This document shows positions 20,240 through 64,000 of a stretch of 64,000 nt of DNA, in pieces. Made by a program: the position numbers and the translations under genes. The notes beneath the pieces are model-generated. The model had not been told where the DNA came from. It saw only the letters and a program-made list of their open reading frames with translations, and did not search any database. Source of the DNA: Eledone cirrhosa (Eukaryota). Each line of letters starts with the position of its first letter. The first letter of the stretch is position 1. Location: positions 256,122,001 through 256,186,000 of the forward strand of contig OZ024740.1 in assembly GCA_964016885.1 (NCBI GenBank), given 5' to 3'.

Positions 20240-21150
20240 GAAAGAATGGTATTTGACTAATGTAATGGTACGCGATGAAGCCCACCCACAGCCCCGGCGG
20301 GCAGAATGGAGAAGGCATTTCCCCGGAGGACGGCAAAGGAGACACTCTGGAAAAGCCACTCCAACTCGCGAGGCTCACACCTACGGCTGGCCAGCTCAGC
20401 GCCTATGGTGGTGAATAAGGAGGTAGCCATGGGGCCGAGGACACCAGAAGTTTCCACTGCCAGGGGAACGACCGCAAACCTGTCGGAGAGTGACCGGTAT
20501 TTGAGGAGTTTGGCCCCCTCAGCCCGACGTGCAGCAGAATCTGGGTCAGTCGCAGACTGCACCAGGTTGCGGCTGCAGAAAGTGTCGGTGCAAGTGGCAT
20601 CCCAGACGAGGGGTTTGCTACCGCGGAACGGGAAGATGGTCATGCCATCTGGCCTTTTCGCGTCCCCTCGATTCATCCCCACCGGCTCGAGCTGGGAAGG
20701 GAAGCCTGCAGCGTCCAAGCCATGCTTAATGACCTCGTTGAGGGCAGTATGGCGTGGAATACGGCCGGCACTGTGGCGACAGGAAAGCGAGTGGAGGCCG
20801 AAAGAGTCCACGGTGGAACCGCAGCGACATTGGTGTGGCTGGCAGTTCCGGAGGCCGAGCCTCAGGGAAACGCCGATTCGCAGGCTATGGTTGTCTAGCT
20901 GCGTGCCAGTGGAGAAGGAGGGCAGAGCATGGAGCCAGGCACCACTGTGGGGTTTGGAGGCCGCACGAAAATAAGCAAGGCGGTGCTGGTCGAGCTGGCG
21001 CGTGAGCCTGTCTGAGGCCAGGCTGCACTGGATGGCATCCCAAGTGCGTTGGGGGGGGGGGACTAGACGTCAACAGGGGGAGAAGGCGGAGGGACATCTA
21101 CTGGGCTAAGTCCCAGCCGGTCCCACGTCTCACAGGCGGCCTCACGTTCT
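20240..21150 (-). mobile_element. CRE-clade non-LTR retrotransposon 3' fragment (zinc finger plus restriction-like endonuclease)
   Basis: HSGAWLHALPS..LRLG, CRCG..D..GLHSLSC, RH..LN, RPDG, WDATC.DT, AE..K..KY, VPLAVETSGV.G. GC-rich relative to flanks. Confidence 0.85.
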
Positions 21151-26829: not shown

Positions 26830-27708
26830 GTGCCGATATGCCACCCAAAAAGTCCTAGCCTGGCCGCAAGATCAGATTTTCCAGAAGAAAAAATGTTACT
26901 AGAGCAACAGAGAGACTAAGCTTCGCGATTACCATCAACAAAGCTCAGGGTCAAACCCTAAAAGAAACCTACAATGAAAGAACATCTTAAAATTTACCCA
27001 AGCCAAATGTTGTATTTATTAACATTTCTCTCTGCAGATTCTTAGCAAGCTTACTGGCGCTTTAGTATGGTATTCAATTCTCATATCGTTTTTGATTGAT
27101 ATGGTGCATATATCGCAGCTATTCATATGTTTTAAACATTAGATAACGATTGCTGATGTATATTGTACGACAGAATTAGATGAAAAATATTTTGAATGAG
27201 CAAATAAAAGAGATAAAAAAGAAAGATGTTTGTTGGTTGGTTCCTTCGCGTATCACACGAAAAAAAAAACGAAAAATGACAATCGGAAAGTATGTACAGG
27301 ATTGGGATAAGAGTATATCCAGGAAAGTTTATTGATACTAATTTTATAACACCAAAGAAGAAGAAAGACATACCACGTATGCTAACCAACCTGACTGCTA
27401 TTTCTAGCAGGTTGGGAATGAACCATAAGGGATTCTCTCTGCGAGTTTGTTGTCAGAGATGATCGTGTTTCGCAGCCTATGTCCCCGATTCCAACAGTGG
27501 CTTACACACACACAGGAACACTCATAAGGCACACATACACACACATATATATTCACACACACACACATATATATACACACAAACACACACAAACACACTC
27601 ACACACACACACTGTAAACAAGACAATGCATTCAATACAGACGTTTTCTCTTCTGCTGGTCTTCTCTTATCATTTGTTAACCTTGGCGAAGCTGGGTACC
27701 TCAACTAG
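26830..27708 (+). mobile_element. Non-autonomous Helitron remnant
   Basis: About 26912-26965 encodes RLSFAITINKAQGQTLK (Pif1-type helicase motif). Terminal hairpin ccttggc-gaa-gctggg (27681-27696) precedes CTAG (27705-27708) followed by T. The 5' TC end was not located. Confidence 0.7.
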
Positions 27709-27866
27709 TATATATATATGAAAATAGAGAAATTAATGTGAGCAAGAAGCCAACAGTAATTCATAATATATAAGTGACTATAACGTCAAGATGGAAAATA
27801 TTTAACTTAACTCAGAATAAAATTAAGGGTAAATACTTATCTTTCAATTTGGAAAAATCTACAAAT

Positions 27867-27947
27867 GCTCTATATAGTCTTAAAAAGACTATTTCACGAA
27901 ACTTTTCAGTGGGGTTAGTCACGGTTGGAGTCGTTCATCAGTAGAGC
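27867..27947 (-). ncRNA. Structurally complete type I hammerhead ribozyme
   Basis: GCUCUA-CUGAUGA-ACGA(31 nt)UCGU-GAA-AUAGUCU(uuuua)AGACUAU-A-UAGAGC: 6-bp stem I, 4-bp stem II, 7-bp stem III, all core bases intact, AUA cleavage triplet. Confidence 0.88.
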
Positions 27948-28213
27948 TCAACACGATAACTAAGAGCTAAAATATGCCAAAAGGGAATTTAAAATCTGGC
28001 TAGTTACACCCCGTGTGGAATTAAGATAATAAACACACGTGGAGAACAGGGCTCGTGACGTCAGAATGGCGGTGTGCCAACAAAAGTAGAAACAATTATA
28101 TATATATATAAATGTCTAATGGTAGCTAAGATGCTTCCATGGGCGGTATGCCGGGGAAACAATTGTAACACACAATAAATTGAGTTCCGATGCATCACTG
28201 ATTTTTCGTTTAC

Positions 28214-28311
<98 letters not shown>

Positions 28312-28509
28312 ATAAGATCAGATCAATGTTCGATCCCTATCGACTGGGCCCAGCTCTGGAATCAAAAGCTATTATATATAAATATATATAGACACACACA
28401 CACGCACGCACACACACAAATCGATACAGATCGAACCTTGAGCTGATCAATAGCGAAATGCGCATCACTACTCACTAAACGTAATGAAGATATAACAAAT
28501 CGTCCTTTT

Positions 28510-28698
28510 AGTGGATTGGCAGTATCGGTAGAGGGTCGGATGTCATACATTGACGCATAGAGTTACGGTCATTCCATTCTGAGTTCAAATCCTGCCGAGG
28601 TCAACTTTGCCTTTCATCCTTACGGGGTCGATAAAATAAAGTACCAGTAATGTACTGGGTAATTGCTGGCCTTGTGCCAAAAGTAGAAACAATTATTA
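28510..28698 (+). mobile_element. tRNA-derived SINE family A
   Basis: Near-identical to 14010-14220; ends agtagaaacaattatt. Confidence 0.88.
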
Positions 28699-28848
28699 TG
28701 CACACACACACACACACACATACACACACACACGCACACACACACATATATATACACACACATGCACACACTAACACAGACACACACATATATATATATA
28801 AATTTAGAAGGAACACGGAGCTGTGTAGTTACTTGATAAAGCGTATTT

Positions 28849-29870
<1,022 letters not shown>

Positions 29871-31810: not shown

Positions 31811-33565
31811 ATTATTATTACAGTTGCATTTATCTTGCTTTATCTTCATGGGCAGTTCCCATTAGTACTATCTTTTGTATTTCTACTATATGCAGGTTTC
31901 CTGTGATTTGCGATAAGTAATCCTTAGACCCCTTAGATATCATTCCTATAGCGCTACAACCACTGGTATTGTTTTAGTTCTCAATTTCCACATTTTTCCA
32001 ATTTCTATCTCCAGGTCCTTATACTTGCTCAATTTTTCAAATGTTTTTATAGATACATTCTTGTGTATTGGAACGGACATATCAATTAGCAGGCATACCC
32101 TCTTTTTAAAGTCCTTCAGTATTATATCAGGTCTATTTGCATCTATTTTTCGTTCTGTTTGGATGCTAAAGTTCCACAAGATTGAGATGTGATATTTTTC
32201 AAGTATGGGAGGTGGTTGATGCTCCCACCAATTCTTTTGATGGGGCAGGTCAAAATGCTTACACATTATCTAATGTATGTATTGTGCAGTTCTGTCGTGC
32301 CTGTTTAGGTATTCGGTTGAAGCTATATAACTGCACATTGAAATTATATGATCAATGGTCTCTGGTTGTTTTTTTACATACGCGGCATAATGGGTTGCAT
32401 CCATTTTTTATTATGTTGGCTTGGTAATTTTTTGTTGGCAGATACTGATCTTGTGCTGATATAATCAGTCCTTCAGTCTCCGATTTCAGTCCAGTGGATA
32501 CCAACCACTGATGGGTTAAAGTTTTGTCAACATCAGGATTGTTAGCTCTTTCTGGGTATTTTCCATACAGAGGCTTTTCTTACCATTTCTTAGCCAGTTT
32601 CTGTAGCAGTTCTTTCTTTGTAGTTACTTTTACCTGCTTTGCTTTTTCTGTGTTTTTCATTTCAGCAGTAAGTGGAACTTCTGAAATTTGTAGTCCATTA
32701 CTGTATCTTTGTGCATCTTTTGTAATGGAGTATGATCTTTTGATGCTTTCGTGTTTCAAAACGAGTTTGATCATCCAATCATGTGATTCCTTTAGATATG
32801 TAGATAATCCAATAGTTGTAGTTTTCAAAGCAATATCTAACTGGATTAATCCACGTCCTCCTTCTTTCCTAGGGAGATATATTCTATTTGCATCAGCCTT
32901 AGGGTGATGCATTCTGTGCATGGTTAAGAGTTTTCGAATTTTTGTATCGAGCCTACGGATCTCTGTGCTTGACCAGTTGATGACATTGTAACTGTAGGTT
33001 ACTACTGGTATGGCAAGCGTGTTTATGGCATCGATCCTATTCCTTGCATTCAATTCCGTTCTTAAGATTGCTCTTACTCTGCGATAACATTCCTTCCTTA
33101 TCCTTTCCCTCATTGTCGAGTGCTTGATTCCGTCTCCTTCACAAACACCTAGATATTTGTAAGTTTCTTCTTGATCAAGTTCTCTTATCACATTCCCCCG
33201 ATCAAGATTAATGTCTGAACTTTTCAGCAGCTTTTCTCTGGCGCATTTATCTAGTCCAAACTCCATTTTAATGTCATCACTGAACTGCTTCACAGTGGAT
33301 AATAGCCCATGAAATTGTTCATCACTTTTTGCAAATAGTTTCAGGTCATCCATGTAGAACAGGTGATTAATGGTTTTGTCATAGACTTTTTATCCATGTT
33401 TTGTTTCATTGAGCATTTTACTTAATGGTATAAGTGCGATGCAGAATAAAAGCGGTGATAAAGAGTCACCCTGAAAAATTCCACAATTAATATTAACTTC
33501 TCCAGCTCCCAGTGATTTTTTTTCACTATTCAAAAGGAGTGTCGTTTTCCATGTCTTCATACTGA
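31811..33565 (-). mobile_element. R4/Dong-like non-LTR retrotransposon, 5'-truncated (RT, CCHC finger, restriction-like endonuclease)
   Basis: GIFQGDSLSPLLFCIALIPL, NHLFYMDDLKLFAK, YKYLG, RIYLPRKEGGRGL, WNFSIQT..IDANRPDI, LIDMSVP, K..KYKDL. (ATT)n at both ends. Confidence 0.92.
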
Positions 33566-35769: not shown

Positions 35770-38700
35770 ATGACCTCACTCAGAATAGGCAGCATAAATG
35801 CGCGTGGCTTGGGGTCGTCATGGAAGCAGGGCCACCTGCTCAACACCCTCAGGTCACTAAACATAGATGTAGTGACAATCAGCGAGACCAGAATCTCCGA
35901 AGCACAGGCCTTCGCACCGATTTTCGGCGGCTACGATGTGTACGCAACTCCCAGCCGTCCGGGATCGGGGGAAGGAGTTGCTGTGCTTTTTCGGAGAGGT
36001 TTGGATCTCGCCATACGGGCCATCTTCCTGGATGTAAGTTGGTGGTGTTAGACGTGACCAGCGGAGACGGGAAAGCTTTCAGGCTAGTGGCCGTCTATAC
36101 CCCGACAGGAGCAGGGCGGCCTGATTTCTTCCGGCGTCTGGAGACCTTTCTTGGAACGTCCCGCTCTTTAGTGTTAGTGGGCGAATGGAACGGGATCTTA
36201 GAATGATGCTGGGACTGTGTGGGATTAGCGGATAGGGGAGGAGGGTGCAAGAGCCTCACCAACCTGCTCAGGCGGTTTGAAATGTCTGACAGGTACCGAT
36301 TGGATTTCCCGAATGTACCAATGTGGACTTGGACAAATTGCATAGGGTCATCCCGATCATATCTAGATAGAGTATTTTGTAGAGAAATAGATAGGTCTAG
36401 CATAGGCTGTCCACAATTCAAGATAATCAGCTACACGGACCACAAATTCGTGATCAGTGTGCTTGACTTAGATAGGCTTCATAGACGAGGACCCGGCTAC
36501 TGGAAGCTAAACGCGTCTTTACCAGCGTGCAAGGTCTACAGAGACCGGATTAGCGAACTAGTTAAGCGGGCGTTGACGGGAGCCATCGTCAACAACAAGT
36601 GGTGGATTGCTCTGAAAAGAGCAATTAGAATAGAGTCCATTAGGTAGGTAAGGCTTTAGCAATAGAGAAAAATAGGGCAGAGAGAGAATTAGTTAGAAAA
36701 TAATACGAGGCGCTTAGCAAAGGCATCGCGACCGACGTACTTGCGGCGAAATTGGCCCTTGACCAATTCTTCAATGCAAAGTACGAAGGCTGCGTTGTCA
36801 GAGCTAGGGTGCGTGCTCTCAGACACGAGTGGACGAAAGCCGTTCAATGGGACCGAGTGGCAGAGGCGTGTCGTGGCAACAAAGCCACGATCCGGTCTTT
36901 GGTGGACCACGACGGGCGCATGCTACTCGATCCCGGGCAAATGTGTGAAGCTTTTCAGCGACACTTCGCTCAGTTGTTCGGGGGAAGCGGCGGGCCGGAT
37001 CGAAGGATGGACTTTAGTGTCTACCTCGACGGACTGCCGCGGCTCTCGGCCACTGAGGCGGAGTGTTGCGAAAAGCCGATAACAACCGCTGAAGTACGGG
37101 AGGCAATGACCAGCTGCACAAGGGGTAAATCGCCTGTTTTGGATGGTCTGCCCTATGAACTTTACGTACAGATGCCAGACTTGTTCGGAGGCCTCTTGGT
37201 GGACGTCTACTGCAACTGGCAACAAAACGGGAGAATTCACAGCTCTGTGAACCGAGGAGTGGTGGCGCTGCTGAGAAAGGATCCGAACATGGGGGATAAC
37301 ATAGATAATTTTAGGCCCATAACTCTGCTAAACACAGAGTTCAAGATTTTGGCCAAGGTGCTAGCAAAGAGGTTGGCGCTTGTCGTTGGTGGTCTGGTGG
37401 GAGAGGCGCAGACATGCGCCATTCCCGACAGATCCTTCCACTACAACCTCCACCTCATGCGATACATCGTAGAGAGGGTAGCTAAAGAACCTGGTCGGGT
37501 GGGTCCTTGATCAATTTAGATCAGTCGAAAGCTTTCGATAGGGTCGACCATCGTTACCGAGCGGCAGTCCTGAGGGCGGCTGGCTTTGGGCCCGTCTTCA
37601 GAGGCTGGATCGCTGCCATGCACAGCGACATCTGCTCTGTGGTGAGAGTGAACGGTCAACTTTCGGAACCGTTCAACATCATGCGCTCGGTCCGCCAAGG
37701 ATGTCCCCTCTCGTCCCTCTTGTACGTATTGACTCTCGAGCCATTACTGCACAAACTGGAGACGTTGAGGGGGGGTCCCGCGCGAACTAGGATGCGGAAG
37801 ATCCGTGTCAGCATATACGGACGATGTCCCCGTAGTGGTGTCGAACGCCAAACACATCGAGGCGATCGGCACTACACTAAGAGAATACGAAGACGTGACA
37901 GGAGGAATGATCAACCAGGAAAAGTCAGTGGGCCTGCAGCTCGGCACCTGGAGAGGCAGGTCCATGCCGTCCAACAGCGTCGTCGGGCGTTGGACGGACG
38001 GACCAGTTAAATTGCTCGGGGTCTGGTCCGGTCCGGATCTCCAGGCGGACAAAAACTGGGACGAGGTGACGAGCAGGGTGGCTTCTCTCACCCAGAAGTG
38101 GGCCGAGAGGAAGCTATCCCTGAAACGTTGAGCGGAGGTGGCTAACGCGTACATCGCGTCCGTCATCTACTACCTCCTGACCGTCGTATCTTGTCCTAAG
38201 CCCCGCCTGACTGCGCTGGAGCGTTTGCTCTTTCGCTTTTTGTAGAAGGGACGCGCTCCGATGGTCAGGCGGTCCATCTGCTGTCAACACCCGCTATGTG
38301 GAGGGCTGGGATGCCCTGGCTGATGATGCGCAGACACGTGCTCAGGCTACGACATCTCCACCTCTTCTTCGACGGTGATCAGGTGTGGTCTCCGTTTGCT
38401 AGACGCGTCTTTCCCCAGCTCGTCTCCTTGACAGAGCTGCAGTCCTGGGTCAAGCAAAGACCGAGAGCGAGCGCCTGGAGACTGGAATGTCTTCAGGCAC
38501 TCACAGCCCTCGACCAATCGGGCAATGTGATCGGTGGAAACTCCACCTTGGCGTTCTATAGAGGATTAGTGGAGGGGAAGAGCGACGACGTACTTGGGGA
38601 AACTCTAGGCGTCGACGAAAATCAATTAGCCAATCTCTTCGGAAGAACTTTCAGGCCGGGGCCTATGAACAACTTCCAGAAATGCCTGGCCTGGCAGTGC

Positions 38701-40621: not shown

Positions 40622-42200
40622 GTGGAAGTATACAGGTCGCAGGAAAATTTTGCTCCCGTAAATTTGTGATTTTTGAAGTTTTTATTGCGAACTTATTGTA
40701 AAAATTTATATTGTTTTGTATTTAAACACACTCCGCTTCATTTGAGGTGGTCGAAATTAATCAGTATTTAGCCTTTCGGGGCTAAATTCCAATTTGAACA
40801 TTGCATTTAGCAAATACGCCCACAAAAAAAAAGAAAATCGGTGTCATTCAAAAAATCTGTTTCTCTACCAAGCTATCGTTCTCTACCTTGTCTACCCTCA
40901 CAACAATTTCTTTCTTCACCCAGCTGTCAGCGTGGAGTCTCGCTTTCCTTTTCGTCTTCATCATCATCACATAGTGAAAGTCAGCCAAAGCCCTTTTCAT
41001 TATCTTCTGCATGAAGCGGCGGTCGAGAAGAGGCTGCTGCTGATGCATTAGACATCAAAGGAGGTTGTAGCAGTAGCGGCAGTATTAACAATAAAACTAG
41101 TGGTAGCAGTATAGCAGTAACAGCAGTAGCGGCAACACCAACAACCCCGTTTGTAGCAATAACAACAACATCATCAACAACAAACCAGTAGCAACAGTAG
41201 CGACGGCAACAATTATGCCACTGAAAAAGGGACCATCTCTTTTGCAAAGGTGGCTCGCAACGTAGAAACAGTCCTGATCACAGAGGAGGAGATGACGGTC
41301 GCAAGACACATGGAAGACTGTAAACAATTAAAGCAAACATTCCCCAACGCAGTTGGGTATTTCAGGGGGTCACTCTCCAAAAGAATCTATACAGATATCA
41401 TCTTAGAGACACCCATGACCAGCCGAAGGGACTGTTCTACTGTCCCTTCCCTTCCCCACACGATCAAGGTAAGTGATCTCACCCAGCATGGTCGTACTCA
41501 GTATAAATTACGTGGCCTGAGATCATATTGGAAGCAGAGTCACCTGCTCAACGACCTCAGGTCACTCAACATAGATGTGGTGGCCATCAGCGTGACCAGA
41601 ATCCCCGAAGCACGAGCCTTCGCACCGATCTTCGGCGGTTACGATGTATACGCATCTCCCCGTCGGTAAGTCGGTGGTGATGGACGTGACAGGCAGCGAA
41701 GGCAATGCTTTCAGGCTAGTAGCCGTCTACGCCCCAACAGGGGCAGGACGGCCAGTTTTCTTCAGACGTCTAGAGACCTTTCTTGGAACGTCCCGCCCTT
41801 TAGTGTTAGTGGGTGACTGGAACGGTATCTTAGATGCACGCTGGGATTATGTGGGGCTAGAAGACAGGGGAGTAGGGTGTAAACGCCTCAACAACCTGCC
41901 CAGACGTTTTGAACTGTCTGACAGGTACAGACTGGATTATCCGAATGTACCAATGTGGACATGGGCAAACCGCATCGGGTCATCGAGATCGTATCTAGAT
42001 AGGGTATTCTGTAGGGAAACAGATAAGGTTAGTGTAAGTTGTCCACGATTTAAAGTAGTCGACTATACAGACCACAAATTTGTGATCTGTGAAGTTGACT
42101 TAGGTAGACTCCATAGGCACGGGCCCAGTTACTGGAAGCTGAACGCGTCGTTCCCGGCGCGCAAAGCTTACAGAGACCGGATTAGCGAATTAGTGATCTA
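40622..42200 (+). mobile_element. Tx1 copy, 5' part with internal deletions (ORF1 remnants, APE)
   Basis: SFAKVARN, LRGLRSYWKQSHLLNDLRSLNIDVVAIS, LVAVYAP, VGDWN, SYLDRV, YTDHK, WKLN. Begins right after (ATT)n. Confidence 0.88.
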
Positions 42201-42949
42201 TATTAGAGAAAGCTTCCCATGCTAATATAATCGTTATAGTGATAAATTAACCTAGCAAGGTTGAAATTTTCATTGGGTTCCTTGCTTATTACGTATAGTA
42301 GCAATAATTTGGGACCCTTGAAATATCATTGGTCTACTGGCTGCTACTCAGCATCAACCACCCTCACACCCCACTGCTTCGTAATTGTGTGAAGCTGTTA
42401 GTTTATGTTCTGATCAAACAAATACTACTACTTGTTTTATATTAACGTCAAAGGTGGAATACATTCAATGTATATATAATAAAAAAGAGTTATTATTTAG
42501 AAATTCCTCAATAAATAAGCAATAACATTGTCTGCAAGAATTCCTCAATTTTTTTTCAAAATTGCATAAGACTTTAATAGGTTATATTTTCTTGGAGAGA
42601 CATAGATGTCACTTTCGAATATAATTAATGTAAGGATGTATGTTTTCTTTTAATAGATTAATTAATCGTATGATTGGTAATATTGTATTTCAGATTTATA
42701 TGAAAAATGAAATATCATGGCGTCGTGCTGAAACTGAAAATATGTTGCGAGTCTTATTTCTAAAGGATGTTATAAGCCGTATGTATGGACCTGTAACTCC
42801 CAAGGATGTTGTAGGGGGTGCCATATTGACATATGGCGTGTATAGGGCGTTTTTATACCCGGCGGAGCCCATCTTTTCACCAAGTCTGAATATAACAGAT
42901 TTCTTCCAGAGAAGGAGAGAGAAAGTGAGAGAGAGGAAGGAAACATAGA

Positions 42950-46703: not shown

Positions 46704-48030
46704 CTTCTTCTTCTTCGCTCATATATTCCTGAGAGAGTCGTAGAGCATCATCCTCAAACGCTCCTTCCAGCTGGTCCTGCCAGAAGCAACCGTCTCCAAT
46801 TGATCCGGAGGGATGCCCATGCGAGATCACCCAAGATCATGGATGATATCCAACAATCCTGCTTGAGGTCAACCCCTGGGTCTCCGGTCGATTGGTTTTG
46901 CCCGTAAAATCTGTCCAGCGATTCTTTCCTGAGACATTATAACCACATATCCTTAATATCGGAGCTATGAATCTCAATTTGGAGAAGTAGCGTTTCTACC
47001 TGGAGTGACTCTCTGATCTCCGAACTACGCCCTCTATCGAGTAATGTTACTCCCAAAACACTTCGGAGGAATCCCATTTCGGCCGCTTGTATTCGCAATC
47101 ATATTCTTTCGGTCATTACCCAAAATACATGACTATAGTTAAGGGTTGACACGAATACCAAATTGAAGATAACGAGTTTAGCTTTTACACCTACCTCCCT
47201 ACTTCTGATTACTGAAAGTTGAAGTGGGCGCATTATTGCACCAGTTCCTGAAATTCTTGCACTTAAGTCATCTTCCATCACTCGTGAACACGGCCGCGAG
47301 ACACTTGAAATTCTCTACCTGCTTCAGTGGAAATCGATTCACATGTAGAGTGCAGTGCGCAAGCTTCACTGATAGTACGAGCAGTTTTCGCAGCACTGGT
47401 TTTCAAGCCACTTATACGGCACTTGCTATCAAACTTATCAATTACAAGTCGGAGATCACCTTTTTAGGGTTAAGTAACTCCATGTCGTCTGCAAATTCCA
47501 GCCGACTGATTTTACACCCACCAGTGATGATACCACTCCCAACCCGGCTGCGCATGTCAATCCTGTTTATGTAAATAATTATTTCTATTTTTGGCACAAG
47601 GCCAGCAATTACCCAGTACATTACTGGTACTTTATTTTGTCGACCTCGTAAGGATGAAAGGCAAAGTTAACCTCGGCGGGATTTGAACTCAAGCCGTAAA
47701 GGGACGTAACTATACTGGAAAGAATGGCGTCCGACTCTCTACCGCTTGTAAATAATTGTTTCTACTATTGGCACAAGGCCAGCAATTATTCCAGTGCATT
47801 ACTGGTACTTTATTTTATCGACCCCGTAAGGATGAAAGGCAAAGTTAACCTCGGCGGGATTTGAACTCAGATCATAAAGGGAGGTAACTCTATGCTTCAA
47901 AGCATGGCGCCCGACCCTCTACCGATACTGCCAATGCACCGAATGAACAGTAGAGGTGACAGTACGCCTCCTTGGCGGAGTCCGACTCCCACATTGAATG
48001 GTCTCGATTTAGGACCATTTATCTTAACAC
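46674..48030 (-). mobile_element. RTE-clade LINE 3' fragment with (GAA)n tail, interrupted by two SINEs
   Basis: GLRQGGVLSPLLF (47990-47942), ISRLEFADDMEL, VGVKAKL.IFN, WVMTER; (TTC)n at 46674-46716. Homologous to 43920-44800. Confidence 0.9.
47581..47940 (-). mobile_element. Two tandem SINE family A copies
   Basis: 47581-47746 and 47758-47940; the first is flanked by an 11-bp duplication tgtaaataatt (47570-47580, 47747-47757). Confidence 0.9.
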
Positions 48031-52033: not shown

Positions 52034-55000
52034 CAAACGGCAGACACCAACGGCAGCCACTACCGGCAGACACCAACAGCAGACACCAGCGGCAGGCACT
52101 AACGGCAGACACCAACGGCAGACACTAACGGCAGACACAAAAGACAGACACAAACCGCAGACTCTAACGGCGGACACAAACGGCAGACATTAACAGCAGA
52201 CACCAACGGCAGACACTAACGGCACACACAAACGTCAGACACTAACGGCAGACACAAACGTCAGACACTAACGGCAGACACCAACAGCAGACACTAACGG
52301 CAGACACAAACGTCAGACAATAACGGCAGACACCAACAGCAGACACTAACAGCAGACACTAACGGCAGACACCAACAGCAGACACTAACGGCAGACACTA
52401 ACGGCAGACACCAACAGCAGACACAAACGACAGACACGAGCGGCAGACGCCAACGGCAGACACTAACGGCAGACACCAACGGCAGACACTAACGGCAGAC
52501 ACCAACGGCAGACACCAACGGCAGACACCAACAGCAGACACCAACGACAGACACTAACGTCAGACACCAACGGCAGACACTAACGGCAGACACTAACGGC
52601 AGACACAAACGGCAGGCCTCAACGGCAGACACAAACGACAGACACTAACGGCAGACACCAACGGCAGACACCAACAGCAGACACCAACGGCAGACACTAA
52701 CGGCAGACACCAACAGCAGACATTAACGGCAGACACTAACGGCAGACACCAACGGAAGACACTAAAGGCAGACAGTAACGACAGACACTAACGGCAGACA
52801 CCAACGGCAGACATTAACGGAAGACACCAACGGAAGACACTAACGGCAGACACTAACGGCAGACACAAACAGCAGACACCAACGGCAGACATTACCGGCA
52901 GACACTAATGGCAGACACCAACAGCAGACACTAACGGCAGACACTAACGGCAGACACCAACGGCAGACACTAACGGCAGACACTAACGGCAGACACAAAC
53001 GGCAGACCTCAACGGCAGACACAAACGACAGACACTAACGGCAGACACCAACGGCAGACACCAACAGCAACACCAACGGCAGACACTAACGGCAGACACC
53101 AACGGCAGACATTAACGGCAGACACTAACGGCAGACACGAACGGAAGACACTAAAGGCAGACACCAACGGCAGACACTAACGGCAGACACTAACGGCAGA
53201 CGCCAACGGCAGACATTAACGGAAGACACTAACGGCAGACACCAACGGAAGACACTAACGGCAGACACCAACGGCAGACACTAACGGCAGACACTAACGG
53301 CAGACGCCAACTGCAGACCCCAACGGCAGACACCAACAGCAGACACCAACTGAAGACACTAACGGCAGACACAAACGGCAGACACCAACGGCAGACACTA
53401 ACGGCAGACACTAACGGCAGACACCAACGCCAGACACTAACGGCAGACACTAACGGCAGACACTAACGGAATACGCCAACTGCAGACCCCAACGGCAGAC
53501 ACCAACAGCACACACCGAGGGAAGACACTAACGGCAGACACCAACGGAAGACACTAACAGCAGACACTAACGGCAGACACCAACGGCAGACACCAACGGC
53601 AGACACCAACGGCAGACGCCAACAACAGACACCAACGGCAGACATTAACGGCAGACACTAACGGCAGACACCAACGGAAGACACTAAAGGCAGACACCAA
53701 CGGCAGACACTAACGGCAGACAATAACGGCAGACACTAACGGCAGATACAAACGGCAGACACCAACGGCAGACATTACCGGCAGACACTAACGGCAGACA
53801 CCAACGGCAGACACTAACGGCAGACACTAACGGCAGACATTAACGGCAGACACTAACGGCAGACACCAACGGAAGACACTAAAGGCAGACACCAACGGCA
53901 GGCACTAACGGCAGACACAAACGGCAGACACCAGCGGCAGGCACTAACGGCAGACACCAACGGCAGACACTAACGGCAGACACAAACGACAGACACAAAC
54001 CGCAGACTCTAACGGCGGACACAAACGGCAGACATTAACAGCAGACACCAACGGCAGACACTAACGACACACACAAACGTCAGACACTAACGGCAGACAC
54101 AAACGTCAGACACTAACGGCAGACACCAACAGCAGACACTAACGGCAGACACAAACGTCAGACAATAACGGCAGACACCAACAGCAGACACTAACAGCAG
54201 ACACTAACGGCAGACACCAACAGCAGACACTAACGGCAGACACTAACGGCAGACACCAACAGCAGACACAAACGACAGACACGAGCGGCAGACGCCAACG
54301 GCAGACACTAACGGCAGACACCAACGGCAGACACTAACGGCAGACACCAACGGCAGACACCAACGGCAGACACCAACAGCAGACACCAACGACAGACACT
54401 AACGTCAGACACCAACGGCAGACACTAACGGCAGACACTAACGGCAGACACAAACGGCAGGCCTCAACGGCAGACACAAACGACAGACACTAACGGCAGA
54501 CACCAACGGCAGACACCAACAGCAGACACCAACGGCAGACACTAACGGCAGACACCAACGGCAGACATTAACGGCAGACACTAACGGCAGACACCAACGG
54601 AAGACACTAAAGGCAGACACTAACGGCAGACACTAACGGCAGACACCAACGGCAGACATTAACGGAAGACACCAACGGAAGACACTAACGGCAGACACTA
54701 ACGGCAGACACAAACAGCAGACACCAACGGCAGACATTACCGGCAGACACTAATGGCAGACACCAACAGCAGACACTAACGGCAGACACTAACGGCAGAC
54801 ACCAACGGCAGACACTAACGGCAGACACTAACGGCAGACACAAACGGCAGACCTCAACGGCAGACACAAACGACAGACACTAACGGCAGACACCAACGGC
54901 AGACACCAACAGCAACACCAACGGCAGACGCTAACGGCAGACACCAACGGCAGACATTAACGGCAGACACTAACGGCAGACACCAACGGAAGACACTAAA

Positions 55001-58000
55001 GGCAGACACCAACGGCAGACACTAACGGCAGACACTAACGGCAGACGCCAACGGCAGACATTAACGGAAGACACTAACGGCAGACACCAACGGAAGACAC
55101 TAACGGCAGACACCAACGGCAGACACTAACGGCAGACACTAACGGCAGACGCCAACTGCAGACCCCAACGGCAGACACCAACAGCAGACACCAACTGAAG
55201 ACACTAACGGCAGACACAAACGGCAGACACCAACGGCAGACACTAACGGCAGACACTAACGGCAGACACCAACGCCAGACACTAACGGCAGACACTAACG
55301 GCAGACACTAACGGAATACGCCAACTGCAGACCCCAACGGCAGACACCAACAGCACACACCGAGGGAAGACACTAACGGCAGACACCAACGGAAGACACT
55401 AACAGCAGACACTAAAGGCAGACACCAACGGCAGACACCAACGGCAGACACCAACGGCAGACGCCAACAACAGACACCAACGGCAGACATTAACGGCAGA
55501 CACTAACGGCAGACACCAACGGAAGACACTAAAGGCAGACACCAACGGCAGACACTAACGGCAGACACTAACGGCAGACACTAACGGCAGATACAAACGG
55601 CAGACACCAACGGCAGACATTACCGGCAGACACTAACGGCAGACACCAACGGCAGACACTAACGGCAGACACTAACGGCAGACATTAACGGCAGACACTA
55701 ACGGCAGACACCAACGGAAGACACTAAAGGCAGACACCAACGGCAGGCACTAACGGCAGACACAAACGGCAGACACCAACGGCAGACATTACCGGCAGAC
55801 ACTAACGGCAGACACCAACGGCAGACACTAACGGCAGACACCAACGGCAGACATTAACGGAAGACACCAACGGAAGACACTAACGGCAGACACTAACGGC
55901 AGACACAAACAGCAGACACCAACGGCAGACATTACCGGCAGACACTAATGGCAGACACCAACAGCAGACACTAACGGCAGACACTAACGGCAGACACCAA
56001 CGGCAGACACTAACGGCAGACACTAACGGCAGACACAAACGGCAGACCTCAACGGCAGACACAAACGACAGACACTAACGGCAGACACCAACGGCAGACA
56101 CCAACAGCAACACCAACGGCAGACACTAACGGCAGACACCAACGGCAGACATTAACGGCAGACACTAACGGCAGACACGAACGGAAGACACTAAAGGCAG
56201 ACACCAACGGCAGACACTAACGGCAGACACTAACGGCAGACGCCAACGGCAGACATTAACGGAAGACACTAACGGCAGACACCAACGGAAGACACTAACG
56301 GCAGACACCAACGGCAGACACTAACGGCAGACACTAACGGCAGACGCCAACTGCAGACCCCAACGGCAGACACCAACAGCAGACACCAACTGAAGACACT
56401 AACGGCAGACACAAACGGCAGACACCAACGGCAGACACTAACGGCAGACACTAACGGCAGACACCAACGCCAGACACTAACGGCAGACACTAACGGCAGA
56501 CACTAACGGAATACGCCAACTGCAGACCCCAACGGCAGACACCAACAGCACACACCGAGGGAAGACACTAACGGCAGACACCAACGGAAGACACTAACAG
56601 CAGACACTAACGGCAGACAACAACGGCAGACACCAACGGCAGACACCAACGGCAGACGCCAACAACAGACACCAACGGCAGACATTAACGGCAGACACTA
56701 ACGGCAGACACCAACGGAAGACACTAAAGGCAGACACCAACGGCAGACACTAACGGCAGACAATAACGGCAGACACTAACGGCAGATACAAACGGCAGAC
56801 ACCAACGGCAGACATTACCGGCAGACACTAACGGCAGACACCAACGGCAGACACTAACGGCAGACACTAACGGCAGACATTAACGGCAGACACTAACGGC
56901 AGACACCAACGGAAGACACTAAAGGCAGACACCAACGGCAGGCACTAACGGCAGACACAAACGGCAGACACCAGCGGCAGGCACTAACGGCAGACACCAA
57001 CGGCAGACACTAACGGCAGACACAAACGACAGACACAAACCGCAGACTCTAACGGCGGACACAAACGGCAGACATTAACAGCAGACACCAACGGCAGACA
57101 CTAACGGCACACACAAACGTCAGACACTAACGGCAGACACAAACGTCAGACACTAACGGCAGACACCAACAGCAGACACTAACGGCAGACACAAACGTCA
57201 GACAATAACGGCAGACACCAACAGCAGACACTAACAGCAGACACTAACGGCAGACACCAACAGCAGACACTAACGGCAGACACTAACGGCAGACACCAAC
57301 AGCAGACACAAACGACAGACACGAGCGGCAGACGCCAACGGCAGACACTAACGGCAGACACCAACGGCAGACACTAACGGCAGACACCAACGGCAGACAC
57401 CAACGGCAGACACCAACAGCAGACACCAACGACAGACACTAACGTCAGACACCAACGGCAGACACTAACGGCAGACACTAACGGCAGACACAAACGGCAG
57501 GCCTCAACGGCAGACACAAACGACAGACACTAACGGCAGACACCAACGGCAGACACCAACAGCAGACACCAACGGCAGACACTAACGGCAGACACCAACG
57601 GCAGACATTAACGGCAGACACTAACGGCAGACACCAACGGAAGACACTAAAGGCAGACACTAACGGCAGACACTAACGGCAGACACCAACGGCAGACATT
57701 AACGGAAGACACCAACGGAAGACACTAACGGCAGACACTAACGGCAGACACAAACAGCAGACACCAACGGCAGACATTACCGGCAGACACTAATGGCAGA
57801 CACCAACAGCAGACACTAACGGCAGACACTAACGGCAGACACCAACGGCAGACACTAACGGCAGACACTAACGGCAGACACAAACGGCAGACCTCAACGG
57901 CAGACACAAACGACAGACACTAACGGCAGACACCAACGGCAGACACCAACAGCAACACCAACGGCAGACGCTAACGGCAGACACCAACGGCAGACATTAA

Positions 58001-61000
58001 CGGCAGACACTAACGGCAGACACCAACGGAAGACACTAAAGGCAGACACCAACGGCAGACACTAACGGCAGACACTAACGGCAGACGCCAACGGCAGACA
58101 TTAACGGAAGACACTAACGGCAGACACCAACGGAAGACACTAACGGCAGACACCAACGGCAGACACTAACGGCAGACACTAACGGCAGACGCCAACTGCA
58201 GACCCCAACGGCAGACACCAACAGCAGACACCAACTGAAGACACTAACGGCAGACACAAACGGCAGACACCAACGGCAGACACTAACGGCAGACACTAAC
58301 GGCAGACACCAACGCCAGACACTAACGGCAGACACTAACGGCAGACACTAACGGAATACGCCAACTGCAGACCCCAACGGCAGACACCAACAGCACACAC
58401 CGAGGGAAGACACTAACGGCAGACACCAACGGAAGACACTAACAGCAGACACTAACGGCAGACACCAACGGCAGACACCAACGGCAGACACCAACGGCAG
58501 ACGCCAACAACAGACACCAACGGCAGACATTAACGGCAGACACTAACGGCAGACACCAACGGAAGACACTAAAGGCAGACACCAACGGCAGACACTAACG
58601 GCAGACACTAACGGCAGACACTAACGGCAGATACAAACGGCAGACACCAACGGCAGACATTACCGGCAGACACTAACGGCAGACACCAACGGCAGACACT
58701 AACGGCAGACACTAACGGCAGACATTAACGGCAGACACTAACGGCAGACACCAACGGAAGACACTAAAGGCAGACACCAACGGCAGGCACTAACGGCAGA
58801 CACAAACGGCAGACACCAACGGCAGACATTACCGGCAGACACTAACGGCAGACACCAACGGCAGACACTAACGGCAGACACTAACGGTAGACACTAACGG
58901 CAGACGCCAACTGCAGACCCCAACGGCAGACACCAACAGCAGACACCAACGGAAGACACTAACGGCAGACACAAACGGCAGACACCAACGGCAGACACAA
59001 ACGGCAAACACCAACGGCAGACACAAGCGGCAGACACTAACGGCAGACACCAACGGCAGACACCAACGCCAGACACTAACGGCAGACACAAACGGCAGAC
59101 ACTAACGGAATACGCCAACTGCAGACCCCAACGGCAGACACCAACAGCGCACACCGAGGGAAGACACTAACGGCAGACACCAACGGAAGACACTAACAGC
59201 AGACGCTAACGGCAGACACCAACGGCAGACACTAACGGCAGACACCAACGGCAGACGCCAACAACAGACACCAGCAGTAGACACCAACGGCAGACACCAA
59301 CGGCAGACACCAACGGCAGACACAAACGGTGGACACCAACAGCAGACACCAACAGCAGACACCAACAGCATACTCCAACGTCAGACACCAACGGCAGACA
59401 CCAACTGCAGACACAAACGGCAGACACTAACGGCGGACACCAACGGCAGACACCAATGGCAGACACCAACGGCAGACACTAACGGCAGACAACAACGGCA
59501 GACACCAACGTCAGACACCAACGGCAGACACTAACGGCAAACAACAACGGCAGACACCAACGGCAGATATTAACGGCAGACAACAACGGCAGACACCAAC
59601 GGCAGACATTAACGGCAGACACAAACGGCAGACATTAACGGCAGACAACAACGGCAGACACCAACGGCAGACATTAACGGCAGACACCAACAGCAGACAC
59701 TAACGGCAGACACCAACGGCAGACACCAACGGCAGACATTAATGTCAGACACCAACGGCAGACACTAACGGCAGACAACAACGGCAGACACGAACGGCAG
59801 ACATTAACGGCAGACACCAACGGCACACACTAACGGCAGACACCAACGGCAGACACCAACTGCAGACACTAACGTCAGACACTAACGGCAGACACCAACG
59901 GCAGACCCCAACTGCAGACACAAACGGCAGACCCCAACGGCAGACACTAACGGCAGACACCAACGGCAGACCCCAACGGCAGACACTAACGGCAGACACT
60001 AACGGCAGACACAAACGGCAAACCCCAACGGCTGACACCAACGGGAGACCCCAACGGCAGACCCCGACGGCAGACACCAACGGCAGACACCAACGGCAGA
60101 CACTAACGGCAGACACCAACGGCAGACGCTAACGGCAGACACCAACGCCAGACACTAACGGCAGACACCAACGGCAGACACTAAAGGCAGACAACAACAG
60201 CAGACAACAACGGCAGACACTAACGGCAGACACTAACAGCAGACACTAACGGCAGACAACAAACGTCAGACACCAATGGCAGACACCAACGGCAGACATT
60301 AACGGCAGACACTAACGGCAGACACCAACGGAAGACACTAAAGGTAGACATTAACGGAAGACACTAACTGCAGACACCAACGGCAGACACCAACGGCAGA
60401 CCGCAACTGCAGACACAAACGGCAGACCCCAACGGCAGACACTAACGGCAGACACCAACGGCAGACACCAACGGCAGACACTAACGGCAGACACTAACGA
60501 CAGACGCCATCGGCAGACACTAACGGCAGACACAAAGGTCAGACACCAATGGCAGACACCAACGGCAGACACCAACGGCAGACACTAACGGCAGACACAA
60601 ACGGCAGACACTAACGGCAGACACTAACGGCAGACACAAACGGCAGGCCTCAACGGCAAACACAAACGACAGACACTAACGGCAGACACCAACGGCAGAC
60701 ACCAACAGCAGACACCAACGGCAGACACTAACGGCAGACACTAACGACAGACACCATCGGCAGACACTAACGGCAGACACAAAGGTCAGACACCAATGGC
60801 AGACACCAACGGCAGACACCAACGGCAGACACTAACGGCAGACACTAACGGCAGACACAAACGGCAGGCCTCAACGGCAAACACAAACGACAGACACTAA
60901 CGGCAGACACCAACGGCAGACACCAACAGCAGACACCAACGGCAGACACCAACGGCTGACACCAACGGCTGACACTAACGGCAGACACTAACGGCAGACA

Positions 61001-64000
61001 CAAACGGCAGGCCTCAACGGCAGACACAAACGACAGACACTAACGGCAGACACTAACGGCAGACACCAACGGCAGACATTAACGGCAGACACTAACGGCA
61101 GACACCAACATAAGACACTAAAGGCAGACACCAACGGTAGACACTAACGACAGACACTAACGGCAGACACCAACGGCAGACATTAACGGAAGACACTAAC
61201 GGCAGACACCAACGGAAGACACTAACGGCAGACACTAACGGCAGACACAAACGGCAGACACCAACGACAGACATTACCGGCAGACACTAATGGCAGACAC
61301 CAACGGCAGACACTAACGGCAGACACTAACGGCAGACACCAACGGCAGACACTAACGGCAGACACTAACGGCAGACACAAACGGCAGACCTCAACGGCAG
61401 ACACAAACGACAGACACTAACGGCAGACACCAACGGCAGACACCAACAGCAGACACAAACGGCAGACACTAACGGCAGACACCAACGGCAGTCATTAACA
61501 GCAGACACTAACGGCAGACACCAACGGAAGACACTAAAGGCAGACACCAAAGGCAGACACTAACGGCAGACACTAACGGCAGACACCAACGGCAGACATT
61601 AACGGAAGACACTAACGGCAGACACCAACGGAAGACACTAACGGCAGACACTAACGGCAGACACAAACGGCAGACACCAACGGCAGATATTACCGGCAGA
61701 CACTAACGGCAGACACCAACGGCAGACACTAACGGCAGACACTAACGGCAGACACTAACGGCAGACACTAACGGCAGACACTAACGGCAGACACTAACGG
61801 CAGACGCCAACTGCAGACCCCAACGGCAGGCACCAACAGCAGACACCAACGGAAGACACTAACGGCAGACACAAACGGCAGACACCAACGGCAGACACTA
61901 ACGGCAGACACTAACGGCAGACACCAACGCCAGACACTAACGGCAGACACTAACGGAATACGCCAACTGCAGACCCCAACGGCAGACACCAACAGCACAC
62001 ACCGAGGGAAGACAATAACGGCAGGCACCAACGGAAGACACTAACGGCAGACACTAACGGCAGACACCAACGGCAGACACCAACGGCAGACACCAACGGC
62101 AGACACCAACAACAGACACCAACAGTAGACACCAACGGCAGACACCAACGGCAGACACCAACGGCAGACACAAACGGCAGACACCAACAGCAGACACCAA
62201 CAGCAGACACCAACAGCAGACACCAACGGCAGACACCAACGGCTGACACCTACTGCAGACACAAACGGCAGACACTAACGGCGGACACCAACGACAGACA
62301 ATAATGGCAGACACCGACGGCAGACACTAACGGCAGACAACAACGGCAGACACAAACGGCAGATATTAACGGCAGACAACAACGGCAGACACCAACGGCA
62401 GACATTAACGGCAGACACAAACGGCAGACATTAACGGCAGACAACAACGGCAGACACCAACGGCAGACATCAACGGCAGACACCAACAGCAGACACTAAC
62501 GGCAGACACCAACGGCAGACACCAACGGCAGACATTAATGTCAGACACCAACGGCAGACACTAACGGCAGACAACAACGGCAGATACCAACGGCAGACAT
62601 TAACGGCAGACACCAATGGCAGACACCAACGGCAGACCCCAACGGCAGACACTAACGGCAAACACTAACGGCAGACACAAACGGCAAACCCCAACGGCTG
62701 ACACCAACGGCAGACCCCAACGGCAGACCCCGACGGCAGACACCAACGGCAGACACCAACGGCAGACACTAACGGCAGACACCAACGGCAGACGCTAACG
62801 GCAGACACCAACGGCAAACACTAACGGCAGACACCAACGGCAGACACTAAAGGCAGACAACAACAGCAGACACCAACGGCAGACACCAACGGCAGACACT
62901 AACGGCAGACACTAACAGCAGACACTAACGGCAGACACAAACGTCAGACACCAATGGCAGACACCAGCGGCAGACATTAACGGCAGACACTAACGGAAGA
63001 CACGAACGGAAGACACTAAAGGTAGACATTAACGGAAGACACTAACGACAGACACGAACGGAAGACACTAACGGCAGACACTAACGGCAGACACCAACAG
63101 CAGACACCAACGGAAGACACTAACGGCAGACACCAACAACAGACACCAACAGCAGACACCAACAGCAGACACCAACAGCAGACACCAACGCCAGACACCA
63201 ACGGCAGACACAAACGGCAGAAACCAACAGCAGACACCAACAGCAGACACCAACAGAAGACACAAACGGCAGACACCAACAGCAGACACCAACAGCAGAC
63301 ACCAACAGCAGACACCAACAGCAGACACCAACGGCAGACACCAACGGCAGACACCAACTGCAGACACTAACGGCGGACACCAACAGCAGACACCAACGGC
63401 AGACACTAACGGCAGACACTAACGGCAGACACTAACGGCAGGCACAAAGATCAGACACCAACGGCAGACACCAACGGCAGACACCATCGGCAGACACAAA
63501 CGGCAGACACTAACGGCGGACACCAACGGCAGACACTAATGGGAGACACCAACGGCAGACACTAACGGCAGACAACAACGGCAGACACCAACTGAAGACA
63601 CTAACGACAGACACCAACGGCAGACATTAACGGCAGACATTAACGGCAGACACCAACGGCAGACATTAACGGCAGACAACAACGGCAGACACCAACGGCA
63701 GACATTAACGGAAGAGAACAACGGCAGACTCCAACCGCAGACATTAACGTGAGACATCAACAGCAGACACTAACGGCAGACACCAACGGCAGACACCAAC
63801 GGCAGACACCAACGGCAGACACTAACGGCAAACAACAACGGCAGACACTAACGGCAGACATTAACGGCAGACACCAACGGCAGACACTAACGGCAGACAC
63901 CAACAGCAGACACTAACGGCAGACACCAACGGCAGACCCCAACTGCAGACACAAACGGCAGACCCCAACGGCAGACACCAACGGCAGACACCAACGGCAG
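52034..64000. repeat. 13-bp satellite array, consensus AACGGCAGACAC[C/T], running off the window end
   Basis: About 920 monomers in the window, one orientation, few indels, higher-order periods of 1845, 1195 and 3040 bp. Confidence 0.98.

What the first reader, a model, noticed from the sequence alone, without database searches (positions are those of the whole stretch)
27867..27947. Apparently intact, monomer-competent hammerhead ribozyme on the minus strand
Seen: GCUCUA-CUGAUGA-ACGA(31-nt loop)UCGU-GAA-AUAGUCU(UUUUA)AGACUAU-A-UAGAGC, with every conserved core base and three perfect helices; predicted cleavage is 3' of the A at 27873 on the minus transcript (AUA). Known: animal PLE-associated type I HHRs usually have a 1-3-bp palindromic stem III and need dimerisation, so a 7-bp stem III is atypical. 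Inference: this copy may self-cleave as a monomer. It lies in a non-coding unit of about 360 bp between (TA)n tracts, next to a Helitron 3' end.
Basis: partly seen in the sequence, partly recalled or inferred. Interest (0 to 1): 0.78.

Follow-up and report, generated by a model that had tools for sequence, protein, structure and literature searches.

The report
Rolling-circle hammerhead retroelement targeting TA repeats
The self-cutting RNA motif is real and sits in one shortened copy of a non-coding jumping element with over a thousand copies in this animal genome, whose copy ends suggest it was likely copied from a small RNA circle, going round more than once, into TA repeats by a borrowed Penelope-type enzyme.

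Summary
The type I hammerhead is exactly as described (helices 6/4/7 bp, full core, predicted cut 27873/27872). It is not a solitary motif and has no tie to the Helitron. It lies in a 5'-truncated, internally deleted copy of a 627-bp non-coding repeat (at least 1,261 copies, at least six subfamilies). Copies share one fixed 3' end on (TA)n, have ragged 5' ends, and often run head-to-tail past one unit (up to 3.2). The ribozyme was under purifying selection while the family spread (5 lineage vs 153 private changes, p=0.001; one compensatory pair). Yet almost no copy begins at the cut site (0 vs 410), both laps of an insertion carry one haplotype, and copying stops four times more often in lap two. 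This best fits a retrozyme circle reverse-transcribed from a fixed internal start by a co-resident Penelope-like element (about 0.65); an uncut multimer template is the main rival. The 31-nt loop II probably pairs upstream to switch the ribozyme off, so monomer cleavage may be slow. No RNA data were available; nothing is shown biochemically. A variant of known animal retrozymes with unusually readable integration footprints.

The parts
27867..27947 (-). Type I hammerhead ribozyme motif (unit positions u300-380)
27942..27947 (-). Helix I, 5' strand (pairs with 27867-27872); pair 2.1-1.1 is A-U here, G-C in one sublineage
27935..27941 (-). Core C3-A9; only N7 varies among lineages
27896..27934 (-). 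Helix II (27931-27934 with 27896-27899) and 31-nt loop II (27900-27930)
27874..27895 (-). G12-A14, then 7-bp helix III (27886-27892 with 27874-27880) and its 5-nt loop
27872..27873 (-). Predicted cleavage and re-ligation site (after A17 at 27873)
   Evidence: hammerhead consensus; coordinates; no insertion in 187 spans
27915..27967 (-). Predicted off-state hairpin: upstream flank 27948-27967 plus the 5' half of the ribozyme pair with loop II
27718..28068 (-). Single copy of the 627-bp element: u172-440 (28068-27806) and u538-627 (27807-27718); 5'-truncated, lacks about 96 bp (u441-537) and 6 bp (u275-280); nearest to subfamily 1, 13 differences in about 370 bases
27710..27735 (-). Fixed 3' end of the family (inferred start of reverse transcription) joined to the (TA)n target at 27710-27717
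28069..28111 (+). Not part of the element: tail-like piece of another repeat and a (TA)n tract at the 5' junction
   Evidence: resembles 28672-28698
27680..27709 (+). Neighbour, not part of the element: Helitron-like 3' end (GC-rich arms then CTAGT)
   Evidence: Helitron label recalled; helicase-like fragment 26859-26987 only Pfam UvrD_C_2 E 0.03, under cut-off; adjacency 4 of 187 loci

Best explanation
The motif is a conserved type I hammerhead inside a truncated copy of a dispersed 627-bp non-coding repeat, which likely spreads as a retrozyme: a transcript of a copy with two hammerheads would cut itself into a 627-nt monomer that would be ligated to a circle, and a Penelope-like reverse transcriptase/GIY-YIG endonuclease would nick (TA)n, start cDNA at one fixed internal site of the circle and roll round it. 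Shown: the motif, the family, fixed 3' and ragged 5' ends, (TA)n flanks, head-to-tail read-through, selection on the ribozyme, the lack of copies starting at the cut site, the higher stop rate in lap two, and abundant RT+GIY-YIG elements in the genome. Inferred: transcription, cleavage, ligation, the circular template, the helper's identity, and an upstream hairpin that holds the ribozyme off in the circle. The window copy has one ribozyme only, so it could cut a read-through transcript but could not release a circle; it is most likely a dead end.
For: Family: 2,284 first-look candidates, 40 scored; exact-word counts 532, 126, 306, 410 and 1,261; unit 627 bp, 32% GC, longest stop-free frame 80 codons. 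Ends: about 170 of 205 distinct alignments reach the fixed end; 5' ends are scattered; 126 of 171 5' flanks have a TA hexamer. What lies upstream of the unit in long copies is the unit again, never an ORF. Selection: on a tree of 124 near-full laps, core plus helices have 5 changes on internal branches against 153 on tips, the rest of the unit 173 against 1,520 (p=0.0012); the five are a compensatory 2.1-1.1 pair (two), an A-U to G-U wobble (two) and one A-to-U at 10.1; in the core only N7 changes; A-U 155, G-C 8, no half-changed G-U or A-C pair. Template uncut at the site: (TA)n joined at the cut site 0 exact matches against 410 intact; a control site 82 against 1,261; no insertion at the site in 187 spans. 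One template read twice: neighbouring laps agree at 1,028 of 1,116 polymorphic sites, 586 expected; within-locus distance 4.6% is about twice the private decay. Lap effect on the same sequence: 2.0 stops per kb (1.4-2.8; 78 copies) in lap one, 8.5 (6.2-11.4; 93 copies) in lap two. No long arrays: 2 loci with adjacent junctions among 100 listed of 126 hits; 12 of 205 alignments hold two or more full hammerheads, 8 with all cores intact. Circle folds at z -4.7 and lineage differences avoid confident pairs (p<0.05 in 5 of 6 subfamilies). Helper class: 10,596 GIY-YIG candidates, RT plus C-terminal GIY-YIG frames; one family ends in TRTTTTCAT on (TA)n like this element in 24 of 27 tails, with similar divergence (3.5%). 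Inverted and reiterated ends as in PLE insertions (10.1101/2021.04.23.441226 passages).
Against: No RNA evidence at all. The genomic signs do not exclude an uncut multimer: a purified PLE protein starts inside its RNA, uses unprocessed RNA and does not need its hammerhead in vitro (PMC11167929). The lap-two rise could reflect source loci of limited length. Only 18 rare variants are shared by both laps against 255 seen in one lap: expected after decay, but not positive proof. The two lap samples were drawn by different anchors, and the control site lies nearer the 3' end where stops are commoner. Simple site counts give only p=0.06 (3 of 44 against 96 of 582). The shared terminus with the candidate helper is weak (score reached by 17 of 1,586, 8 of 582 and 3 of 61 control windows) and no longer homology was found in 50 PLE loci. 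The active fold is predicted 5-10 kcal/mol above the ensemble in context; helix II lacks G10.1-C11.1; 8 of 9 frog retrozyme dimers did not cut in vitro (10.64898/2026.07.22.740005). Assembly may have collapsed long arrays.
Confidence: 0.65

Rival explanations
1. Non-autonomous Penelope-like element copied from uncut linear multimers: the helper starts inside a tandem transcript, and the hammerhead is kept for another step (protein-assisted cutting, RNA turnover or end formation), with no circle.
For: Internal initiation on unprocessed RNA with a dispensable hammerhead was shown for an anole PLE (PMC11167929). Partial tandems and inversions are the normal PLE pattern. The ribozyme is predicted to be mostly off. 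Absence of copies starting at the cut site and haplotype agreement between laps fit this too.
Against: Each of at least six subfamilies has copies longer than one unit but no long master array was seen; the fourfold rise in stops in lap two is not expected on a long linear template; no shared unique 5' flanks among 171 ends (sparse sample); a monomer-type 7-bp helix III under selection suits release of a monomer.
Confidence: 0.25
2. The repeat is the solo pseudo-LTR or tail of an autonomous Penelope-like element, and the copies are ordinary truncated PLE ends.
For: Same insertion pattern as PLE tails; the cut site lies 253 nt from the fixed end, comparable with about 210 nt in the candidate helper; vertebrate retrozymes resemble pLTRs.
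Against: In all long copies the upstream sequence is the unit itself, not an ORF (93 junction loci; 20 ribozyme-anchored loci); no homology beyond a terminal word to 50 GIY-YIG loci; the helper's hammerhead is the minimal palindromic type.
Confidence: 0.06
3. A DNA-level rolling-circle or Helitron-borne repeat in which the hammerhead is a passenger.
For: The window copy abuts a Helitron-like end; rolling-circle DNA transposons also make tandems (recalled).
Against: Only 4 of 187 loci have such an end beside the element; the fixed end has no CTRR or terminal hairpin; ragged 5' ends with (TA)n; RNA-structure selection on the ribozyme.
Confidence: 0.03

Closest known systems
Metazoan non-LTR retrozymes (Cervera and de la Pena 2020, PMC7229834; e.g. 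Mytilus 350-390-bp units)
   Same: Non-coding, low-GC unit with one type I hammerhead per head-to-tail repeat; monomer-type ribozyme lacking the usual loop I-II contacts as in the mussel; compact predicted circle; heterogeneous population; co-resident PLEs proposed as helpers.
   Different: Unit 627 bp (their range about 170-400 nt; 51-972 bp in 10.64898/2026.07.22.740005); mostly dispersed sub-unit to 1.5-unit copies with one fixed end on (TA)n rather than arrays; 7-bp helix III and 31-nt loop II; ribozyme predicted blocked by self-pairing, which that paper says most metazoan circles lack (some mussel ones excepted); RNA not shown here.
Canonical endonuclease-positive Penelope-like elements and their pLTR hammerheads (PMC4209133; PMC11167929; 10.1101/2021.04.23.441226)
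   Same: Partial tandem and inverted insertions, 5' truncation, fixed internal start, AT-rich or microsatellite targets, hammerhead on the sense strand a few hundred bases from the fixed end.
   Different: No ORF; hammerhead is not the minimal palindromic dimer type; the start site has microhomology to the (TA)n target, whereas the anole element starts at a site without homology to the cut DNA.
Plant LTR retrozymes and hammerhead viroids (as described in PMC7229834, discussion)
   Same: Circle of 600-1000 nt in which the ribozyme is blocked by a complementary sequence.
   Different: Those use type III hammerheads, LTRs with PBS/PPT and Gypsy helpers, or replicate RNA to RNA; none of these features was seen here.
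Long-helix-III type I hammerheads of fungal and protist PLEs (PMC4209133)
   Same: Large helix III, no recognisable loop I-II contacts, active as monomers.
   Different: Those lie in pLTRs of telomere-associated, endonuclease-free PLEs of non-animals; this one is in an ORF-less animal repeat.

Membership tests
Type I hammerhead ribozyme | Core C3 U4 G5 A6 N7 G8 A9, G12 A13 A14, A15.1-U16.1, H17 | tested here: met
   core intact in 132 of 170 full spans; 0 lineage changes outside N7
Type I hammerhead ribozyme | Three helices, helix I open, with covariation | tested here: met
   compensatory 2.1-1.1 pair in 8 laps of 6 loci (one event); G-U wobble in helix II
Type I hammerhead ribozyme | G10.1-C11.1 pair and loop I-loop II tertiary contact of fast natural hammerheads | tested here: not met
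   A10.1-U11.1 in 162 of about 175 laps; no canonical loop motifs seen; Rfam models give no match. These are usual, not obligatory, features
Type I hammerhead ribozyme | Site-specific self-cleavage | not testable with these tools
   needs in vitro assay or RNA ends
Non-LTR retrozyme | Non-coding unit with one type I hammerhead per head-to-tail repeat | tested here: met
Non-LTR retrozyme | Loci with two or more complete hammerheads able to release a monomer | tested here: met
   12 of 205 alignments (sample enriched for long copies), 8 with intact cores; the window copy itself has one
Non-LTR retrozyme | Compact predicted circular fold, GC below 45% | tested here: met
   z -4.7 against 40 shuffles (reverse strand -4.5), GC 32%
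Non-LTR retrozyme | Expressed as linear and circular monomer RNA | not testable with these tools
   no RNA run listed
Non-LTR retrozyme | Co-resident autonomous PLEs | tested here: met
Non-LTR retrozyme | Derivation from a pLTR of a PLE | tested here: inconclusive
   only a terminal word shared with one family; 50 loci compared
Autonomous Penelope-like element | RT plus GIY-YIG ORF between pLTRs | tested here: not met
   no ORF in the unit; unit follows unit upstream
Minimal dimer-dependent PLE hammerhead | 1-2 bp helix III with palindromic loop | tested here: not met
   7 bp helix, non-palindromic loop
tRNA-derived SINE | Internal Pol III A and B boxes | tested here: not met
   no A box; one loose B-like word at u293; heads are truncated, not fixed
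Helitron | Fixed 5' TC and 3' hairpin-CTRR ends | tested here: not met

The most novel reading that the evidence does not exclude
This family is a genomic record of rolling-circle, target-primed reverse transcription of a ribozyme-made RNA circle: a Penelope enzyme starts at one fixed TA-like site on the circle that mimics its own element's end, loses processivity once it must displace its own cDNA in lap two, and the circle protects itself with a two-state switch in which loop II pairs with the upstream flank to turn the hammerhead off. That would supply the missing integration step and the missing off mechanism of animal retrozymes.
Probability: 0.4. Interest if true: 0.72.

Novelty: new variant of a known kind. 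Interest (0 to 1): 0.52.

Why it matters
How animal retrozymes get back into the genome is a hypothesis in the papers read (PMC7229834 discussion; 10.64898/2026.07.22.740005): circle, some primer, probably a PLE enzyme. Here the start site, the DNA target, the strand, a candidate helper family and a lap-dependent stop rate can be read from hundreds of copies, so the step can be rebuilt in vitro with the assay of PMC11167929. The predicted off hairpin bears on the open point of how metazoan circles avoid re-cutting. A natural 627-nt circle that is written into (TA)n by a defined enzyme would also interest people who build RNA-templated gene insertion. The single motif in the window, on its own, is ordinary: one of several hundred intact-looking copies.

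Tried and rejected
Rfam at gathering score (whole window) and at E up to 10 (27600-28200): no hammerhead match. An apparent pile-up of 5' ends just after the upstream cut site in the first sample vanished in the larger junction sample and in genome-wide counts; rejected. A possible pile-up at exactly one lap was not counted, because that sample left out loci fetched earlier and the site has TA microhomology. Sequencing runs: no RNA holder listed; three unlabelled contig sets of one sample hold the repeat and say nothing on expression. Shared 5' flanks (transduction): none beyond same-locus duplicates and simple repeats. Helitron link rejected. A 1.4-kb period near C1:162.57 Mb is a local duplication of a one-unit copy with its flanks, not a larger element. 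The distal arm of the off hairpin (u274-279 with u335-340) is not supported: its lineage changes break pairs. No helper copy with a complete intact frame was shown (longest 664 codons); the 844-1,096-codon frames belong to other PLE families. Paper searches: hammerhead ribozyme + octopus (5 papers), retrozyme + cephalopod (2), retrozymes + hammerhead + circular RNA (43), and searches showed no description of this family or of a lap-dependent stop rate; subscription papers, Repbase and Dfam were not searchable, and the supplements of the papers read were not opened, so a catalogue entry may exist. The host guess behind those search words is recalled from repeat types and untested. Earlier scan notes: nothing by sequence or place.

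Full report
Observation. The 81-mer folds at z -3.2. A descriptor finds it once in the window and never at this quality in 150 Markov mimics of 52 kb. Rfam misses it, which I attribute to the long loop II and the A-U pair at 10.1-11.1 (inference).

The family. The surrounding 350 bases match a dispersed repeat: 2,284 first-look candidates, 40 scored, most at 92-96%. Exact words give 532, 126, 306, 410 and 1,261 hits in the 3.0-Gb genome, so there are more than 1,200 copies. I fetched 30 best matches, 90 of the first 100 places of the 3'-end word, 90 further places of the junction word (3 more already held; 4 listed and 26 unlisted left out) and 20 ribozyme-anchored places. The unit is 627 bp, 32% GC, without a long frame, and falls into at least six subfamilies, each 3-4% from its own majority sequence. 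The window copy covers u172-440 and u538-627, is nearest subfamily 1, and has one ribozyme that equals the family majority.

Anatomy of insertions. In ribozyme orientation nearly all copies end at one place followed by (TA)n; 99 of 205 alignments carry a few more bases of the next unit that resemble the target, 26 pass straight into (TA)n, 3 carry 11 more bases, 4 repeat the terminal word, 35 do not reach the fixed end (partly fetch limits and internal pieces). The 5' ends are scattered, and 126 of 171 have a TA hexamer beside them (four loci are counted twice in the 171). Some insertions have an inverted partner (L018, L099, L131, L132, L204, L207). This is the pattern of target-primed reverse transcription by Penelope-like elements (10.1101/2021.04.23.441226, passages). 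Long copies continue upstream into the end of another unit, up to 3.2 units (L114); none continues into an ORF.

The ribozyme mattered. Of 170 full spans 132 keep the core and 65 also all 17 pairs, as expected from decay after insertion. Shared variants avoid the ribozyme: by sites 3 of 44 against 96 of 582 (p=0.06); on a tree of 124 near-full laps 5 internal against 153 tip changes, versus 173 against 1,520 elsewhere (p=0.0012). The five are the two sides of a compensatory change at the pair next to the cut site, two A-U to G-U wobbles at the outer end of helix II, and one A-to-U at 10.1, which gives a U-U mismatch like that reported for an axolotl motif (PMC7229834). The one free core position, N7, changed three times. 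One frequent variant that breaks an outer helix III pair (9 laps) did not map to an internal branch.

What the template looked like. If cut linear RNA were copied, copies would start at the cut site. Genome-wide, (TA)n joined at that site occurs 0 times as an exact word against 410 intact sites; a control site shows 82 against 1,261; one mutated example exists among my loci (L291). No insertion marks the site in 187 spans. The two laps of one insertion agree at 1,028 of 1,116 polymorphic sites where 586 are expected, and differ by 4.6%, about twice the private decay (74 lap pairs). Over the same sequence (140-627 nt from the fixed end) copying stopped 2.0 times per kb in lap one (78 copies, after dropping 3 duplicates and 9 whose anchor was not in the last lap) and 8.5 per kb in lap two (93 copies; two multi-junction loci counted by their first junction). 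A circle explains all of this: the site is re-ligated, length is unlimited, and lap two needs strand displacement (inference). Loci with two ribozymes, which could renew the circle, exist: 12 of 205 alignments, 8 with intact cores. An uncut multimer explains most of it as well, and is what a purified anole PLE protein used (PMC11167929, first two of four parts read); it needs long masters, which I did not find (2 loci with adjacent junctions in 100 listed), or short sources, which could also raise the lap-two rate.

An off switch. With 20 or more upstream bases, and in the full circle of the four subfamilies that could be tested, the active fold lies 5-10 kcal/mol above the ensemble, because the upstream flank and the 5' half of the ribozyme pair with loop II. 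This hairpin has its own double changes (u283-332, U-A 121 and A-U 27; u296-321 in three laps) and three pair types at u285-330; the two commonest variants near helix II suit both folds. Pair-keeping changes are 19 of 36 on internal branches against 74 of 225 on tips (p=0.018), but nine come from one flipping site, the structure was derived from these sequences, the alignment near u280-285 is ambiguous, and the distal arm is unsupported. I rate it likely, not shown. It tempers the claim of monomer competence.

The helper. GIY-YIG domains are very abundant (10,596 candidates, 150 scored, all over the cut-off), in frames with RT upstream. One family (4,441 candidates) ends on (TA)n in the same nine-letter word as this element and on the same strand (about 8 of 30 loci; 24 of 27 tails), has a minimal palindromic hammerhead with a U3-A8 core about 210 nt from its end, a variant described for PLEs (PMC4209133), and is of similar age (3.5%). 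The match is short and reached by 1-5% of control windows, so this family is a candidate only.

Comparison and verdict. It works like a metazoan non-LTR retrozyme and meets every defining feature that DNA can test; RNA features are untested. It differs from the described ones in being mostly dispersed and truncated with one fixed end, in its long helix III and loop II, and in predicted self-blocking. Papers seen: PMC7229834 (passages and sections 14, 17), 10.64898/2026.07.22.740005 (parts 1-3 of 5), PMC11167929 (parts 1-2 of 4), PMC4209133 and 10.1101/2021.04.23.441226 (passages); no supplements. Six searches showed no account of this family. Verdict: real, a new variant of a known kind; interest 0.52, resting on the family and not on the single copy.

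Noticed in passing
window 52036-64000: A 13-bp satellite, about 920 copies at 85% matches, fills the last 12 kb with a strong strand bias.
   Followed up: no
window 28500-28700 and 47570-47924: A SINE-like repeat of about 180 bp, single at 28.5 kb and as a tandem pair at 47.6 kb; no Rfam match at E up to 1. Its tail recurs at the 5' junction of the element.
   Followed up: partly
window 26859-26987 and 27680-27709: Decayed helicase-like fragment (Pfam UvrD_C_2, E 0.03) and a Helitron-like end; probably a dead Helitron.
   Followed up: partly
window 28854-29215: Inverted repeat arms of about 70 bases (28860-28910 and 29160-29220) flanking a short spacer between TA tracts, MITE-like.
   Followed up: no
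window 20260-21069, 32583-33389, 36704-37507, 41596-42222: Stop-free frames of 200-290 codons that look like pieces of retroelement proteins; not scanned.
   Followed up: no
flanks of L011, L014, L016, L020, L025, L028: Short minimal-hammerhead-like motifs of other repeats, also in (TA)n, probably ends of further PLE families.
   Followed up: no
L261-L290 (candidate helper), about 210 nt before the fixed end: Minimal hammerhead with U3-A8 core and palindromic loop III.
   Followed up: partly
L014, L015, L078, L094, L131, L133 3' ends: The terminal word is repeated two or three times before (TA)n, like re-priming by a telomerase-related enzyme.
   Followed up: partly
L246, L248: RT-endonuclease frames present twice in inverted orientation (551 and 402 codons), as in PLE inverted insertions.
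   Followed up: no
unit u275-285 (window 27961-27966): A hypervariable stretch just upstream of helix I, with all four bases at some positions.
   Followed up: partly
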